64,000 bases of DNA from Haemophilus parahaemolyticus (GTDB lineage: Bacteria; Pseudomonadota; Gammaproteobacteria; Enterobacterales; Pasteurellaceae): positions 22,483 through 86,482 of the forward strand of contig NZ_CALIFA010000030.1 of the NCBI RefSeq assembly GCF_938021905.1, in the 5' to 3' direction. The notes beneath the pieces were generated by a model. It did no database searches and was not told where the DNA came from. It worked only from the letters and a program-made list of their open reading frames with translations. Shown one piece after another: positions 79-3,534 of this stretch. Numbering within the stretch: position 1 is the stretch's first letter; the number at the start of each line of letters is the position of its first letter. Both the position numbers and the translations under genes were made by a program.

Positions 79-1263
79 TTATTTATTTCTAGCTAAAATA
101 ATTTTTTTCTTAAGTCCAAAAGCTTTAAAAAAAGTAGAGGCGAATGAAGATTCTGGCTCAACTTCTTCTTCATACAATTCTGTATATTCTGTCTTATTAG
201 CTCTTTGGAATGCTTCGCGTTTTGAAGAGGATAGAACATCGTCTCCTGTTTCATTCATTGTTGGTTCATAAACCAGCCCATTCAATACATATCGAAGTTC
301 ATAGTTAGCATAAACAATTGTTTTTTCATTATCAGATAAATCTTTAAAACGAACATCACGAGAAGCAATTCCCTGCAATTTAACTAATTGTTCATTAGCC
401 CAATATTCATCTAATGCTTTAAAAGTTGAATTACATTCTCTGGTATATTTAGCAATCGCATTTAATTTACTTACGACAACTTTTAATTTTTCCGCAGCTG
501 CTTCTACTTTCTTCCAGTTTTCATAGGCTTCTTCTTTTTTCTCTGCGGCTTTAGAAGCAAAGATTGAACCACCAATCGCAAGTAAAGGACCAGCCACTAA
601 ACCTCCCATTACTGCCATTCCGCCAGCCATACCCAAACCTCCAGAAGCTAAAGAACCACCACCAAGCCACGCTAATGTAGCATTAGTTGCCGCTGCACCA
701 GATAAGCCACTAATTGCAGTACCTGTGGATGCTGTTGCTAATGCTCCCACGCCTAAATACGCCCCACCACTCGCGGCTAAGCCAGCTAAAGAACCTGTTA
801 CTGCAGACGTTAAAGCATTTGTCATTTTTGCCATATCAACACGTTCAGCTCTAATTCTATTTTCAGCATCTTTAATGCTCATATTTTGATCAATAAGATG
901 AAGTTTTTTAAGAATTTGGATTTCTTCTTCCTTAGTAATCACAATACGTCCTAATTTTTCAGCCATATTTCGACCGATAGCTAATTGAGAACCTTTGCGT
1001 TCACCACCAGGATAACAAATTAAAGAATCAAACAAGTTGATATGTTCAATTCCCAATTTTTTAGTTTTCCCATAGTTTTCTAAACTAGATTGAGTATCTG
1101 ATTTTTGGCTTTCTAGCTTATTATTAGCCTCTTCAGCTTCTTGCTTAGCCCAACGCTGATAACGCTCTGCATCATCTAAATCATTCTTCGCATCTACGCC
1201 TTTTTTAACGCCAAATGCCCCTGCTGCAATAGCAGCTCCTGCAATAATAAATGGTAAAGCCAT
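79..1263 (-). CDS. Coiled-coil / glycine-zipper membrane protein of unknown function (394 aa)
   Basis: Strong SD (aggaga, 5 nt before the ATG). Short hydrophobic N-terminus (MALPFIIAGAAIAAGAFG). A charged helical region of about 125 aa, then about 90 aa of Gly/Ala/Ser/Thr-rich small-xxx-small repeats (GSLAGLAASGGAYLGVGALA...GGLGMAGGMAVMGGLVAGPLLAIGG), typical of glycine-zipper membrane segments. A charged C-terminal domain of about 150 aa follows. I recognise no family. It is the last gene of the AT-rich cassette. Confidence 0.7.
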   Translation of the reverse strand: MALPFIIAGAAIAAGAFGVKKGVDAKNDLDDAERYQRWAKQEAEEANNKLESQKSDTQSSLENYGKTKKLGIEHINLFDSLICYPGGERKGSQLAIGRNMAEKLGRIVITKEEEIQILKKLHLIDQNMSIKDAENRIRAERVDMAKMTNALTSAVTGSLAGLAASGGAYLGVGALATASTGTAISGLSGAAATNATLAWLGGGSLASGGLGMAGGMAVMGGLVAGPLLAIGGSIFASKAAEKKEEAYENWKKVEAAAEKLKVVVSKLNAIAKYTRECNSTFKALDEYWANEQLVKLQGIASRDVRFKDLSDNEKTIVYANYELRYVLNGLVYEPTMNETGDDVLSSSKREAFQRANKTEYTELYEEEVEPESSFASTFFKAFGLKKKIILARNK

Positions 1264-1299: not shown

Positions 1300-2190
1300 T
1301 TACTTCAGTTTCGTTAGATATAATTTCAAATTTTCATTCATCTTTTCTTGCAACTCCGCAGGACTGACAATCGTCAAATGTGGCACCCAATACTGCACTA
1401 ACGGCACAATTTCCTGCTCATTCACATTTTCACAAGAAAGTAACAAGCCACCGTCGTCTAATTTATGCACCAGTTTTTGGTTAGGCAGTAAATTTCGTCG
1501 TAAGAAATAATGGCTGACGGTGCTTTCTACTTTAATAATAATTTCTGCAAGTTGGTTTCCGTGGTAGAGGCTATCGCTTTGGCGGATTTCGTTTTGTAAA
1601 TTTTCATTCGGAATGAACCGCTCTTTTAATACAAGAAGATCGTGAATTTGGGTAAAACAGAAAGTTTTTTGTTTATTATTTTCTGTGCCGATTAAATACC
1701 AGATGCCGTTTTTATTTAATAAACTATAAGGCGAGATTTGATAATATTTGGTTTCTTGTGTACTGTTTTTAGTGTATTTAAAACTAATGTTTAAATTTTC
1801 TTTAATAGCATTATTTAGTGCGTCAAATTCTTTTTCTTTTCCACTAATATCTTCATATTGAAAGCCTTTAACTTGCACGCTTTGGGTGAGTTTTTCTTGG
1901 TAAAACTCGCGATCTATTTTGGGGAATAAATCGGCAATGCTTGCGAATAAGGCGAAGCGGCTAATATCCTCTTCGGTCAGGAAACCGGATTTTTGTTGAT
2001 TTATTTTGTAAAAACGACCGCCCTTTTCTTCCCATTCAAGGAAATTGAGGCGTTCGTTAATATCGCGTTGGAGGGTGCGGATCGATAAGCCAAATTCATC
2101 GGCAAGCAAAGTTATATCAAGGCGTTCACCTTGATTTAAGCGGGCTAAAATTTGACTTAGGCGTTGTGCCAGTTGTTGACTTCTTTTCAT
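1300..2190 (-). CDS. WYL-domain transcriptional regulator (HTH-WYL-WCX architecture, BrxR/CapW-like)
   Basis: N-terminal DeoR-type HTH (LSQILARLNQGERLDITLLADEFGLSIRTLQRDI). Central WYL motif (NGIWYLIGTENNKQKTFCFTQIHDLLVLKERF). C-terminal extension, 296 aa. Intergenic gaps of 60 nt and 36 nt to its neighbours, consistent with one operon. Confidence 0.8.
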   Translation of the reverse strand: MKRSQQLAQRLSQILARLNQGERLDITLLADEFGLSIRTLQRDINERLNFLEWEEKGGRFYKINQQKSGFLTEEDISRFALFASIADLFPKIDREFYQEKLTQSVQVKGFQYEDISGKEKEFDALNNAIKENLNISFKYTKNSTQETKYYQISPYSLLNKNGIWYLIGTENNKQKTFCFTQIHDLLVLKERFIPNENLQNEIRQSDSLYHGNQLAEIIIKVESTVSHYFLRRNLLPNQKLVHKLDDGGLLLSCENVNEQEIVPLVQYWVPHLTIVSPAELQEKMNENLKLYLTKLK

Positions 2191-2250
2191 TTGGATTCGT
2201 TGTTGGTTGTCAATGGCAATAAATTAACACATCTTTCTCAAAAAAGTACG

Positions 2251-3063
2251 TCAGGTTTTGTCGTTGGTAATTTTTATTTTTAATAATTGTTTAAGTTCGA
2301 TAATTTCTTGCTCAAGTGATTGCATTTTGTTTAATAATACTGCTTCTTCATCTTTCTCTTCTTTAACGCGAATTTCCCCTACGCAGTCCACAATAACACC
2401 AATGGCAATATTTAAGATAATGTAACTAGCAATCAATAGAAAGCTCACAAAAATAATCCAAGCGTGAGGGTGAACCTCCATTACAGAGCGAACAATGCCC
2501 ATTGACCAGCTTTCAAACGTCATTATTTGAAAGAGTGTGTAGAAACTATCGCCAATGGAGCCGAACCAATGTGGAAAGTCTTTGCCATAAAGATAGGTGA
2601 CAATAATGGCATATACGTAATACAGGTTGAGCAATAAAATGCAAATTCCTAGCATGGAAGGTAGAGTTTTAAATAAGGCTTGAGACACCATTCGCATTTT
2701 GGGAATGATGGAAATAAGGCGAAGTACTTCCACAATGCGAAAAGTACGAAAAACGAAAAAGATTTCACTTTCTAAAATAAGAGAGCTGGAAACAATGATG
2801 ATAAAGTCAAAAATATTCCACCCGCTTTTAAAGAAAGCGAGGCGATAGGTATATATTCGCAGTACAAGCTCGAATAAAAAGAGATAGGAAAAAATTTTAT
2901 CATAGAAGATTAAGCTGGAGTGATAATGACTTTCCGTCGGAAGCGAGAGATCGATGCCAATAATAATAGAATTTAGCACAATGCTGGTTAACACAAATTT
3001 ATAGAAATAATGGCTTTTAACGATTTTCTCGATCATTTTCCTCATCATACGCACTCTTTCCAT
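2251..3063 (-). CDS. Bacterial voltage-gated Na+ channel homologue (BacNav/NaChBac-like, Ion_trans superfamily)
   Basis: 270 aa, a typical BacNav length. S3 motif GWNIFDFIII. S4 voltage sensor with R every third residue (FRTFRIVEVLRLISIIPKMRMV, compare NaChBac RILRVLRVLRAISVVPSLRRLV). Pore/selectivity filter FYTLFQIMTFESWSMGIV (compare NaChBac FFTLFQVVTLESWASGVM). C-terminal coiled coil (EAVLLNKMQSLEQEIIELKQLL), as used for BacNav tetramerisation. The start codon is ambiguous: M1, M6/7 or M10; M10 has the best SD, gagga. Confidence 0.8.
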   Translation of the reverse strand: MERVRMMRKMIEKIVKSHYFYKFVLTSIVLNSIIIGIDLSLPTESHYHSSLIFYDKIFSYLFLFELVLRIYTYRLAFFKSGWNIFDFIIIVSSSLILESEIFFVFRTFRIVEVLRLISIIPKMRMVSQALFKTLPSMLGICILLLNLYYVYAIIVTYLYGKDFPHWFGSIGDSFYTLFQIMTFESWSMGIVRSVMEVHPHAWIIFVSFLLIASYIILNIAIGVIVDCVGEIRVKEEKDEEAVLLNKMQSLEQEIIELKQLLKIKITNDKT

Positions 3064-3089
3064 CTATTTAATCAGAAAAACGTTTGCAT

Positions 3090-3118
3090 TATACTTTAAA
3101 AGTATAGTGCAAGTATAG
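3090..3118. promoter_or_regulatory. Candidate operator in the divergent promoter region: palindrome TATACTTT-A-AAAGTATA plus a third AGTATAG half-site
   Basis: Perfect 8-bp inverted arms at 3090-3106, and a repeat of the half-site at 3112-3118. It sits between the channel operon (minus strand) and the XRE regulator (plus strand). Confidence 0.45.
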
Positions 3119-3183
3119 TCAGCCCTTTATGATAAAAACTGAATTTTTATAATTTCTCCATTGTAATTTTTGGGGGAATCCTT

Positions 3184-3534
3184 GTGTCAGAGAAACGACA
3201 ACAATTAATTTATACCATTGGGCAATCCATTGCGAAATATCGCCAAGCCGCAGGGTTAACACAAGCACAACTGGCTGAAATTTTAGGCATTGGTAATGAT
3301 GCAGTTTCTCGTATGGAACGAGGCACAACAACTCCGACTATCACTCGCTTGTTAGAACTCGCGGATATTTTTCATTGTGAAATTGCTGATCTCGTTACTG
3401 ATGCCAGCCATCGCCCAACTGATCAAGCTCGCCAATTAGAACGAATGCTTGCAAACCTTGATGATAATGAACGTTTTGAGCTATTGAGCCTTATTGAACG
3501 TATGCTGAAGTGGAAACATATGCACCATTTATAA
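3184..3534 (+). CDS. XRE-family (Cro/CI-type) HTH transcriptional regulator
   Basis: GTG start with a GGGGGA SD 7 nt upstream. HTH_XRE signature (QAQLAEILGIGNDAVSRMERGTTTPTITRLLELADIF) plus a C-terminal extension of about 50 aa. It is transcribed divergently from the channel operon. Confidence 0.8.
   Translation: MSEKRQQLIYTIGQSIAKYRQAAGLTQAQLAEILGIGNDAVSRMERGTTTPTITRLLELADIFHCEIADLVTDASHRPTDQARQLERMLANLDDNERFELLSLIERMLKWKHMHHL

What the first reader, a model, noticed from the sequence alone, without database searches (positions are those of the whole stretch)
2251..3063. Canonical BacNav channel in a host-associated Pasteurellaceae genome
The protein has every hallmark of NaChBac-family channels. 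These are the S3 GWNxFDF motif, an S4 helix with arginines every third residue, the pore motif FxxTxESW (TFESWSM here, LESWAS in NaChBac; the single Glu per subunit predicts an EEEE Na+-selective filter) and a C-terminal coiled-coil neck. BacNavs are mostly described from alkaliphiles and marine bacteria, so one in a Pasteurellaceae genome, inside an apparently acquired cassette, is unexpected.
Basis: partly seen in the sequence, partly recalled or inferred. Interest (0 to 1): 0.7.

Follow-up and report, generated by a model that had tools for sequence, protein, structure and literature searches.

The report
Haemophilus sodium-channel homolog with altered sensor
This is an intact bacterial voltage-gated sodium channel gene (NavAb/NaChBac family) in the human throat commensal Haemophilus parahaemolyticus; one of the four gating arginines is naturally replaced by glutamate, and the gene is a strain-variable one at the edge of an anti-phage defence island.

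Summary
The ORF at 2251..3063 (-) is real and intact. It is a BacNav homolog: Pfam Ion_trans 1.3e-38, full-length match to NavAb at E 3e-63, and a predicted fold matching NavAb/NavMs. The GWNIFDF motif, the TFESWSM filter and the C-terminal coiled coil are all present.

It is not fully canonical. The S4 helix reads R106-R109-E112-R115, so the third gating charge is Glu. About 250 sampled relatives keep a basic residue there. The Glu is shared by three lineages (99, 84 and 77% identity) and the gene is under strong purifying selection.

The genome is Haemophilus parahaemolyticus. The gene belongs to a monophyletic, Pasteurellaceae-only TFESWSM clade, so it is not a recent import from marine bacteria, and its GC content is unremarkable.

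It is accessory. It lies inside a strain-variable island between a nitroreductase gene and pheS. It is always paired with a divergent XRE regulator and sits next to a WYL regulator that precedes swappable defence cargo (Bunzi-like or dynamin-like genes). Some strains lack it or carry nonsense or frameshift alleles.

Most likely it is an XRE-repressed, Na+-selective tetrameric channel with retuned voltage dependence. A role in defence is possible but unsupported. NCBI already annotates it as 'ion transporter'.

The parts
2251..3063 (-). BacNav-family channel gene. 270 codons from the first ATG; the probable true start is M6 at 3048 (265 aa). Stop codon TGA at 2251-2253.
   Evidence: ORF. Ion_trans 1.3e-38. 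NavAb E 3e-63, full length. AlphaFold model pLDDT 76.6 with Foldseek NavAb/NavMs prob 1.0 and TM 0.65-0.80. SD-like GAAAGAG before M6 and N-termini of orthologs.
2710..3012 (-). Voltage-sensor domain S1-S4 (residues about 18-118). Countercharges are kept: D38 (S1), D55 (S2 outer), F62/E65/R69 (S2 charge-transfer centre) and D86 within GWNIFDF (S3).
   Evidence: Alignment to NavAb and to 24 relatives. Residues specific to the subclade cluster here: F58, S59, Y60, L61, L63, S92, L97.
2719..2748 (-). S4 gating-charge row R106-R109-E112-R115. The E112 codon GAA at 2728-2730 replaces the otherwise invariant R3.
   Evidence: The codon is GAA in the window, L092 and L104, and GAG in L001. Relatives with R3 intact use CGC or CGA.
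2356..2703 (-). Pore domain: S5, P1 helix, filter, P2 helix and S6 (residues about 121-236). This is the most confident part of the model (pLDDT about 90).
2500..2520 (-). Selectivity filter T182-F-E184-S-W-S-M188 (TFESWSM).
   Evidence: It is identical to the filter of NavAb L176F (PDB 9VDR), a functional channel (PMC12393289).
2254..2355 (-). C-terminal neck and coiled coil (residues 237-270). The neck is about 7 residues shorter than in NavAb.
   Evidence: Aligned to the NavAb C-terminal domain. The model shows a continuous helix over residues 201-269.
3064..3183 (.). Divergent control region between the channel and XRE genes. A palindrome with 14-nt arms (3084-3097 / 3099-3112) overlaps a TATAAT box (3088-3093, minus strand) upstream of the channel gene. 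A direct repeat AAGTATAGT occurs twice (3100-3108, 3111-3119).
   Evidence: The core is nearly identical in the sister taxon L001, although the coding DNA is only 77.5% identical. Its function as an operator is inferred.
3184..3534 (+). XRE-family HTH regulator (116 aa) transcribed divergently from the channel gene. It accompanies the channel in all three R3E lineages.
   Evidence: HTH_3 1.4e-15. Synteny. dN/dS 0.12 against L001.
2248..2264 (-). Inverted repeat ACGACA-N5-TGACGT, followed about 20 nt later by a -10-like box. This is the WYL gene's own operator/promoter motif, and it overlaps the channel stop codon.
   Evidence: It is conserved upstream of every WYL allele of the island, including alleles with no channel upstream (L090, L093).
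1300..2190 (-). wHTH-WYL-WCX transcriptional regulator with BrxR/CapW-type architecture. It heads the variable defence cargo.
   Evidence: Pfam HTH_11, WYL and WCX. PADLOC WYL 1.5e-26. The cargo changes immediately after its 3' end. Family behaviour is described in PMC9122601.
79..1263 (-). 394-aa glycine-zipper protein, the first cargo gene. It matches the candidate defence family PDC-M09A. Its partner gene (BnzB-like) lies beyond the left edge of the window.
   Evidence: PADLOC PDC-M09A 6.5e-25, and BnzB 3.4e-137 for the next gene in L092. The >=90% identity cluster spans H. influenzae, H. parainfluenzae and H. parahaemolyticus.

Best explanation
The gene encodes a functional single-domain channel subunit of the BacNav (NavAb/NaChBac) family. 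It has six transmembrane helices and a C-terminal coiled coil, and four copies should form a tetramer.

The ring of four Glu184 residues in the TFESWSM filter should make the pore Na+-selective. The Phe in the filter, which faces Ser213 in S6, probably favours slow inactivation.

The voltage sensor keeps R1, R2, R4 and all countercharges but carries Glu at R3. The channel is therefore expected to remain voltage-dependent, with less gating charge and a shifted, probably destabilised, activated state. A gating-pore leak is also possible.

The gene is an accessory gene of Haemophilus parahaemolyticus and two related lineages. It is probably repressed by the divergently transcribed XRE protein through a conserved palindrome over its -10 box. 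It sits at the edge of a defence-island hotspot as a transcription unit separate from the neighbouring WYL-plus-cargo unit.

Its cellular role is most likely controlled Na+ entry in bacteria that run a sodium cycle.

Shown: family membership, fold, motifs, the E112 substitution and its conservation, purifying selection, strain variability and synteny. Inferred: tetramer formation, Na+ selectivity, altered gating, XRE repression and physiological role.
For: Family and fold:
- Ion_trans 1.3e-38.
- NavAb and NavMs E about 1e-63 to 1e-60 over the full length.
- Foldseek prob 1.0, TM up to 0.80.

Filter: TFESWSM is exactly the filter of NavAb L176F. That mutant conducts, activates at an unchanged voltage, and has its steady-state inactivation shifted by more than 30 mV negative through contact with T206 (PMC12393289). 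The query has Ser at the T206 position.

Sensor:
- The row reads R-R-E-R.
- The RRER pattern occurs only in the three-lineage subclade: 20 RRER against 195 RRRR of 219 aligned sequences, and no acidic R3 in 57 other representatives.
- The Glu codon varies synonymously between lineages, GAA versus GAG.
- Further substitutions specific to the subclade cluster in S2-S4.

Selection: against the 84% ortholog, dN is 0.105 and dS is saturated.

R3's known partners: in NaChBac these are D60 and E43, in the activated state (PMC7059764). Both positions stay acidic here (D55, D38).

Regulation:
- The conserved palindrome overlaps TATAAT.
- The WYL gene has its own conserved operator and promoter, whether or not the channel lies upstream.

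Accessory status: 13 of 19 comparable contigs carry the gene; the rest show replacement or deletion variants.
Against: - There are no functional data at all.
- A charge reversal at R3 could abolish voltage gating, or abolish surface expression, rather than retune it.
- S4 is the least confident part of the model (pLDDT 47-63).
- Nonsense and frameshift alleles circulate: P0231 stops at W202 and is seen on 35 contigs, and P0011 is frameshifted. The gene is therefore dispensable and may be costly.
- The window allele also carries P193S at a position that is at least 90% conserved.
- No sigma-70 promoter passed the consensus scan in the intergenic region, so the promoter and operator assignment rests on conservation only.
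- The constant linkage to a defence regulator is left unexplained by a pure 'sodium homeostasis' role.
Confidence: 0.7

Rival explanations
1. One reading: a canonical BacNav that gates like NaChBac or NavAb, with the E112 substitution functionally silent.
For: Every other hallmark is intact: R1, R2, R4, the charge-transfer centre, the filter and the coiled coil.
Against: R3 stays basic in every other sampled relative (Arg in 195 sequences; Lys in one representative). It forms the activated-state salt bridges in NaChBac. Charge reversal needs at least two nucleotide changes and has been kept across three lineages. The surrounding sensor residues have changed together with it.
Confidence: 0.1
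2. The channel is a working part of the defence island. It could be an abortive-infection effector, held off by XRE and depolarising or Na+-loading the cell on infection. Or it could be a membrane-potential sensor feeding the WYL-controlled systems.
For: - The gene lies inside the variable island, not in its conserved flank; the left breakpoint is at about L092:11830, before XRE.
- The trio XRE | channel - WYL is kept in three lineages, at two or more chromosomal sites, while the cargo is swapped: Bunzi-like, dynamin/LeoA-like or PDC-M40B-like.
- The repressor/operator layout is tight.
- Inactivated alleles are common, as expected for costly defence genes.
- A more distant clade member sits among SIR2, PP2C and NT5C genes.
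Against: - None of the 5027 PADLOC models matches the channel.
- WYL plus cargo occurs without the channel (L090, L093) and has its own promoter and operator, so the two units are separable.
- The three lineages probably reflect one ancestral arrangement, so this is effectively a single observation.
- Other clade members lie between housekeeping genes: recG/mntH, dapF/xerC, lexA/cyaY.
- No close homolog was found on phages or plasmids.
- No paper in the library links BacNavs with defence.
Confidence: 0.15
3. The gene is a decaying relic. The R3E change crippled the sensor and the gene is drifting towards loss.
For: Truncated alleles and deletion variants exist in the population.
Against: dN is 0.105 with saturated dS against the 84% ortholog. 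The pore, filter and countercharges are fully conserved. Glu112 is retained, with synonymous codon turnover, in all full-length alleles of the three lineages.
Confidence: 0.05

Closest known systems
NavAb (Arcobacter butzleri BacNav; PDB 3RVY, 4EKW, 5VB2), in particular its L176F mutant (PDB 9VDR)
   Same: About 39-40% identity over the whole length, including the C-terminal coiled coil. The pore sequence FYTLFQxMTxESWSMGIVR is nearly identical. The filter TFESWSM is that of the L176F mutant. The S2/S3 countercharges and R1, R2 and R4 are conserved.
   Different: R3 (NavAb R105) is Glu. There is one extra residue in the S3-S4 loop, and that loop's Pro is replaced by Leu97. The neck is about 7 residues shorter. 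Ser replaces T206. The S2 outer position is Asp (as in NaChBac D60), not Asn49.
NaChBac (Bacillus halodurans) and NavMs (Magnetococcus marinus)
   Same: Single-domain 6-TM architecture, a filter with one Glu per subunit, and S1/S2 acidic partners for S4.
   Different: NaChBac has TLESWAS and a full R1-R4 row. Those hosts are alkaliphilic or marine, whereas this one is a human oropharyngeal commensal.
NavAb R3G, the 'NormoPP' periodic-paralysis model (PDB 6C1M)
   Same: The Arg side chain at R3 of a BacNav sensor is lost (entry names). From my own knowledge (Jiang et al. 2018, Nature), R3G opens a gating-pore leak in the activated state.
   Different: That is an engineered Gly. Here the residue is a natural, conserved, negatively charged Glu. 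Whether it leaks is untested.
Pasteurellaceae TFESWSM BacNav clade (e.g. H. paracuniculus B0187_03980, Lonepinella sp. BR2474, [Actinobacillus] muris RO21_09720)
   Same: They form a monophyletic clade with the window protein at 44-56% identity, with the same filter and a conserved IVDCxGEIK gate region.
   Different: They keep Arg at R3 and lack the XRE and WYL neighbours. Three of them instead have a ~105-aa repeat protein directly upstream.
BrxR/CapW-type wHTH-WYL-WCX regulators heading defence islands (applies to the neighbour gene, not the channel)
   Same: The neighbour at 1300-2190 has the three-domain architecture. It is preceded by a conserved inverted repeat and followed by interchangeable defence cargo (PMC9122601).
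   Different: It has no detectable sequence match to solved BrxR or CapW structures. A channel gene upstream of such a regulator has not been described, as far as I could find.

Membership tests
BacNav (NaChBac/NavAb single-domain voltage-gated Na+ channels) | Single Ion_trans domain of about 250-290 aa with six TM helices (S1-S4 sensor, S5-P-S6 pore) | tested here: met
   Pfam PF00520 1.3e-38 over residues 18-234. The helices in the AlphaFold model match S1-S6. Foldseek best hits are NavAb and NavMs, prob 1.0.
BacNav (NaChBac/NavAb single-domain voltage-gated Na+ channels) | Full-length sequence homology to experimentally characterised BacNavs | tested here: met
   NavAb E 3e-63 (residues 9-267) and NavMs E about 3e-60.
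BacNav (NaChBac/NavAb single-domain voltage-gated Na+ channels) | Selectivity filter T-x-E-S-W-x-x with a single acidic residue per subunit (EEEE ring) | tested here: met
   TFESWSM at 182-188. It is identical to the functional NavAb L176F filter. There are no extra acidic residues of the CavAb or CavMr type.
BacNav (NaChBac/NavAb single-domain voltage-gated Na+ channels) | S4 with four arginines (R1-R4) at three-residue spacing | tested here: not met
   The row is R106, R109, E112, R115. A further 195 of 219 aligned sequences, and 50 of 57 other representatives, read RRRR. None has an acidic R3.
BacNav (NaChBac/NavAb single-domain voltage-gated Na+ channels) | Countercharges and charge-transfer centre (S1 acidic, S2 outer acidic/Asn, S2 Phe-x-x-Glu-x-x-x-Arg, S3 Asp) | tested here: met
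   D38, D55, F62, E65, R69 and D86 align with NavAb E32, N49, F56, E59, R63 and D80.
BacNav (NaChBac/NavAb single-domain voltage-gated Na+ channels) | C-terminal neck plus four-helix coiled coil | tested here: met
   Residues 237-267 align to the NavAb C-terminal domain. The model has a continuous helix over 201-269. Tetramer formation itself was not modelled.
BacNav (NaChBac/NavAb single-domain voltage-gated Na+ channels) | Depolarisation-activated, Na+-selective current | not testable with these tools
   This needs heterologous expression and patch-clamp.
Anti-phage defence system component | Match to a known or candidate defence protein family | tested here: not met
   The channel gives 0 PADLOC hits. 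The XRE protein gives only generic HTH hits (HTH_VI, capH, PDC-M69A).
Anti-phage defence system component | Residence in a variable defence island next to recognised defence genes | tested here: met
   Neighbours are the WYL regulator, PDC-M09A, BnzB (3.4e-137), LeoA-like dynamins and PDC-M40B. The island content differs between strains.
Anti-phage defence system component | Protection against phage when present, and loss of protection when deleted | not testable with these tools
   This needs experiments.
Prokaryotic Ca2+-selective relatives (CavMr type; engineered CavAb) | Additional acidic residues or Gly in the filter (e.g. TLDDWSD, TLEGWVD) | tested here: not met
   The filter is TFESWSM, with Ser at +1 and Met at +4 after the Glu.

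The most novel reading that the evidence does not exclude
The R3-to-Glu BacNav variant has been recruited as a dedicated component of a mobile Haemophilus defence island.

It would normally be silenced by its XRE partner and released on phage attack. It would then collapse the membrane potential or the Na+ gradient, either through the pore or through a cation leak in the modified voltage sensor. Alternatively, it would report phage-induced depolarisation to the adjacent WYL-controlled systems.

This would be the first voltage-gated-type ion channel with a role in bacterial immunity.
Probability: 0.12. Interest if true: 0.85.

Novelty: new variant of a known kind. Interest (0 to 1): 0.45.

Why it matters
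BacNavs are the main structural models for eukaryotic sodium and calcium channels, yet their roles in bacteria are barely known.

This gene offers a natural, selection-maintained charge reversal at gating charge R3, together with co-evolved sensor residues. It also carries a natural version of the L176F filter mutation that was recently tied to slow inactivation.

Comparing the wild type with an E112R revertant would be a cheap test of how much one gating charge and its salt bridges contribute to voltage sensing. It would also show whether nature tolerates a gating-pore leak.

The gene also documents a whole BacNav clade confined to host-associated Pasteurellaceae, which use a sodium cycle (established knowledge about the family; not checked in this window).

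Finally, it places a voltage-gated-type channel inside a defence island. If that placement is functional, it would widen the range of known membrane-depolarising immune effectors.

Tried and rejected
- An exact look-up of the 270-aa product found nothing. The public gene calls start at M6 or M10; the 265-aa form is on record as P0235.
It missed H. parahaemolyticus and H. paracuniculus, so it cannot be used for prevalence.
- Base composition as evidence of foreign origin was rejected. The gene's GC (0.353) is at the 11th percentile of the window, and its GC3 is ordinary.
- Searches for phage-borne or plasmid-borne close relatives found none: one 30% phage hit, and plasmid hits of at most 42% in marine and soil taxa.
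- The donor lineage could not be resolved. The NJ tree puts a single unnamed sequence as sister; the nearest named relative is Halarcobacter at 44%.
- Co-transcription of the channel with the WYL gene was considered, because no terminator was predicted between them. It was down-weighted because the WYL gene has its own conserved operator and -10 box in all alleles.
- I looked for a compensating new basic residue in S1-S3 to pair with E112 and found none. The changes specific to the subclade are polar or hydrophobic.
- The apparent 'empty site' L091 is not pristine. It keeps about 130 bp of the XRE 3' end, so it is a deletion derivative.
- The XRE neighbour of the Frederiksenia channel is unrelated to the window's XRE.
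- Sequence search of the WYL protein against the PDB gave no hit. NCBIfam has no model for the channel.
- Literature searches for BacNav or NaChBac together with Haemophilus or Pasteurellaceae found no papers.
- The Chp1 CRISPR pore preprint and the Li+-selectivity paper turned out to be irrelevant.
Full report
**1. Observation**

The minus strand of the window carries an uninterrupted ORF at 2251..3063, 270 codons long. Its product matches Pfam Ion_trans (PF00520) at 1.3e-38 over residues 18-234.

It aligns end to end with the solved bacterial sodium channels. NavAb is the best hit at E 3e-63 (residues 9-267, including the C-terminal coiled coil), and NavMs scores about 3e-60. An AlphaFold2 model built on 29 homologs has a mean pLDDT of 76.6, with the pore domain near 90 and S4 only 47-63. 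It shows the expected helices, including a continuous S6-to-C-terminus helix over residues 201-269. Foldseek against the PDB returns NavAb and NavMs with probability 1.0 and TM-scores of 0.65-0.80.

- GWNIFDF in S3 (residues 81-87).
- TFESWSM in the filter (182-188).
- A heptad-like C-terminus.

The most likely true start is M6 at 3048. It follows a GAAAGAG Shine-Dalgarno-like element and matches the N-termini of orthologs and NCBI's 265-aa call.

**2. The channel is not canonical**

The alignment to NavAb is ungapped across S4. In it, the gating-charge row reads R106, R109, E112, R115, so the third charge (NavAb R105, NaChBac R119) is glutamate.

I tested how unusual this is:
- In an alignment of 219 sequences, 195 read RRRR, one reads RRRK, three are fragments lacking S4, and the 20 RRER sequences all belong to the window's own subclade.
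- Among 57 other single-domain representatives of 50%-identity clusters from a 1.84-billion-protein library, none has an acidic residue at R3.

The Glu is not an error or a recent lesion:
- It is present in every full-length allele of H. parahaemolyticus and in two further lineages, at 84% and 77% protein identity.
- It is encoded by GAA in three loci and by GAG in the fourth.
- Relatives use CGC or CGA, so at least two nucleotide changes were needed.

Against the 84% ortholog the gene has dN 0.105 with saturated dS, which is strong purifying selection.

Residues specific to the subclade cluster in the sensor: F58, S59, Y60, L61 and L63 around the S2 charge-transfer Phe, plus S92, L97 (Pro in 184 of 196 other sequences) and M125. 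No new basic residue appears that could pair with E112.

In NaChBac, R3 bridges to D60 (S2) and E43 (S1) in intermediate and activated states (PMC7059764). The equivalent positions here remain acidic (D55, D38). I therefore infer that the activated state is destabilised or re-registered and that the gating charge is reduced.

From my own knowledge, engineered NavAb R3G produces a gating-pore leak in the activated state. The PDB entry '6C1M NavAb NormoPP mutant' appears. Whether a Glu does the same is untested.

**3. The pore**

The filter differs from NavAb only by Leu to Phe, and the whole Pasteurellaceae clade shares TFESWSM.

This exact change has been studied. NavAb L176F (PDB 9VDR) still conducts and its activation is almost unchanged. 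Its steady-state inactivation is shifted by more than 30 mV negative, because the bulkier side chain contacts T206 in S6 (PMC12393289). The window protein has Ser213 at the T206 position.

There are no extra acidic filter residues of the Ca2+-selective kind. Na+ selectivity with pronounced slow inactivation is the reasonable prediction, and it is an inference.

**4. Organism and family context**

Exact-sequence look-ups place the window in Haemophilus parahaemolyticus. SspA, PurE, TsaB, the XRE protein, the WYL protein and the 394-aa protein are WP_281772697 to WP_281772705. The channel cluster includes RDF03852.1, named 'ion transporter [Haemophilus parahaemolyticus]'.

The protein belongs to a set of 33 sequences sharing the Phe-containing filter, which form one clade in a neighbour-joining tree. 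Every named member is a host-associated Pasteurellaceae:
- H. paracuniculus (54% identity).
- Lonepinella sp. (49%).
- [Actinobacillus] muris (49%).
- 'Pasteurellaceae bacterium Macca' (46%).
- Frederiksenia canicola, identified through its LexA.

The nearest sequences outside the clade, from Halarcobacter, other Campylobacterota and Erythrobacteraceae, reach only 43-45% identity. The gene's GC content is not an outlier. No close relative is on a known phage or plasmid.

So a BacNav in Pasteurellaceae is an established, family-wide, patchy feature, not a recent import from an alkaliphile or marine donor. The donor lineage cannot be named from these data. I found no paper linking BacNav or NaChBac with Haemophilus or Pasteurellaceae.

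**5. Genomic setting**

I compared 19 metagenomic contigs that carry the identical SspA. The region between the nitroreductase gene and a 219-aa gene next to pheS is a variable island:

| Variant | Contigs | Loci |
|---|---|---|
| XRE \| channel - WYL - glycine-zipper protein (PADLOC PDC-M09A) - BnzB-like (3.4e-137) - CxxCxxCC protein; this is the window's arrangement | part of the 13 with the channel | L092, L094, L095 |
| XRE \| channel - WYL - two dynamin/LeoA-like GTPases plus further genes | part of the 13 with the channel | L086-L089 |
| A divergent WYL allele (about 70% nucleotide identity) with other cargo and no XRE-channel | 5 | L090, L093 |
| A deletion that keeps about 130 bp of the XRE 3' end | 1 | L091 |

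Thirteen contigs carry the channel and six do not.

Homology with channel-less strains ends at about L092:11830, just past the nitroreductase gene. XRE-channel is therefore part of the variable segment. Between channel-bearing strains, homology runs through the WYL gene and breaks at its 3' end, where the cargo is exchanged.

The same trio, XRE | channel - WYL, recurs in two other taxa:
- It is found at 77.5% nucleotide identity in an unnamed Haemophilus-like taxon, at a different chromosomal site (between an opacity-type OMP gene and a KefC-like gene). There the island again ends with a homolog of the 219-aa protein (49% identity).
- It is also found in a third lineage, followed there by a dynamin-like gene.

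Clade members that keep Arg at R3 sit in unrelated housekeeping neighbourhoods without XRE or WYL genes.

**6. Regulation (inferred)**

The 120-bp region between the XRE and channel genes contains a palindrome with 14-nt arms (3084-3097 / 3099-3112). It overlaps a TATAAT box (3088-3093) on the channel strand, and there is also a 9-nt direct repeat. This core is almost invariant between the window and the sister taxon, although the coding DNA differs by 22%.

That pattern is what one expects for an operator through which the XRE protein represses the channel promoter.

Separately, every WYL allele, with or without a channel upstream, is preceded by ACGACA-N5-TGTCGT and a -10-like box about 20 nt later. 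In the window this repeat (2248-2264) overlaps the channel's stop codon.

The WYL-plus-cargo unit therefore has its own control elements, which fits the published behaviour of wHTH-WYL-WCX regulators such as BrxR and CapW (PMC9122601, PMC11662680). XRE-channel and WYL-cargo are thus two separable modules that happen to travel together.

**7. Interpretation**

The best-supported reading (confidence about 0.7) is a functional, XRE-repressed, Na+-selective tetrameric BacNav. Its voltage sensor has been retuned by the R3E change and its filter favours slow inactivation. The gene is carried as an accessory gene.

A plausible role is regulated Na+ entry. From established knowledge, Pasteurellaceae depend on a sodium cycle (Na+-NQR and Na+-coupled transport). 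This was not tested here.

The rivals are:
- A silent substitution, giving a fully canonical channel (0.1).
- A true defence function as an effector or sensor (0.15). Island residence, conserved linkage and frequent inactivated alleles favour it. The lack of any PADLOC match, the separability from WYL-cargo and the single evolutionary origin of the linkage argue against it.
- A decaying relic (0.05), which the purifying selection contradicts.

Nonsense and frameshift alleles (P0231 on 35 contigs, and P0011) show that the gene is dispensable. The window's own allele is intact. It differs from the common allele by A107T and P193S.

**8. Novelty and score**

The family assignment is ordinary, and the gene is already annotated as 'ion transporter'. 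Four things are new as far as I could find:
- The natural charge reversal at R3, with co-evolved sensor residues.
- The natural L176F-type filter.
- The existence of a Pasteurellaceae-restricted BacNav clade.
- The placement of such a channel inside a defence island.

I rate it a new variant of a known kind, with interest 0.45. It offers a useful natural experiment for channel biophysics and an intriguing but weakly supported link to immunity.

Noticed in passing
L099:2738-3055, L006:7631-7948, L102:3064-3384: A ~105-aa protein built of four repeats (W-[IV]-x-DG-x-x-LKPK-x-GA-x-SNTW) lies directly upstream of the BacNav gene in three Pasteurellaceae lineages that keep R3 (56-58% identity to each other). 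It has no Pfam or NCBIfam family, and it is absent from the window. It may be a conserved partner of the channel.
   Followed up: partly
window 2248-2264; also upstream of the WYL genes in L001, L104, L090, L093: A conserved inverted repeat ACGACA-N5-TGTCGT, plus a -10-like box about 20 nt later, precedes every WYL allele of the island. It is probably the WYL autoregulatory operator. In the window it overlaps the channel stop codon.
   Followed up: partly
L092:17173-17832 and L001:16373-17035 (beyond the left edge of the window): A 219/220-aa protein with an RNQ(L/I)(I/L)HGG motif (Rx4H, HEPN-like) closes the island in both taxa (49% identity). It has no Pfam, PADLOC or NCBIfam hit above threshold.
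   Followed up: partly
window 79-1263 (-): The 394-aa glycine-zipper protein matches the PADLOC candidate family PDC-M09A (6.5e-25). Its >=90% identity cluster includes H. influenzae and H. parainfluenzae, which implies recent exchange between Haemophilus species. In L092 its downstream partner is BnzB-like (Bunzi, 3.4e-137), followed by a CxxCxxCC protein.
   Followed up: partly
L086-L089:14174-20645: An alternative cargo behind the same XRE-channel-WYL head: two dynamin-like GTPases (a weak LeoA match), unknown proteins of 331-374 aa, and in L086 and L088 a 1044-aa DUF87/FtsK-like ATPase. This looks like an Eleos/dynamin-type defence system.
   Followed up: no
L002:10863-11753, L003:10863-11752: In some contigs of the sister taxon the WYL regulator gene is split into fragments of 118-157 aa and 56 aa, while the channel and cargo remain intact. 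These strains appear to have a broken regulator.
   Followed up: no
L102:1412-6368: The BacNav homolog P0013 (50% identity, R3 intact) sits among two SIR2-domain genes, a PP2C phosphatase gene and an NT5C nucleotidase gene. This is a second defence-like neighbourhood for the clade.
   Followed up: no
window 2485-2487 and 2743-2745 (codons 193 and 107 of the channel): The window allele differs from the common H. parahaemolyticus allele by P193S and A107T. P193 is a position at least 90% conserved after the filter, though Ser also occurs in H. paracuniculus. A107T lies between R1 and R2.
   Followed up: partly
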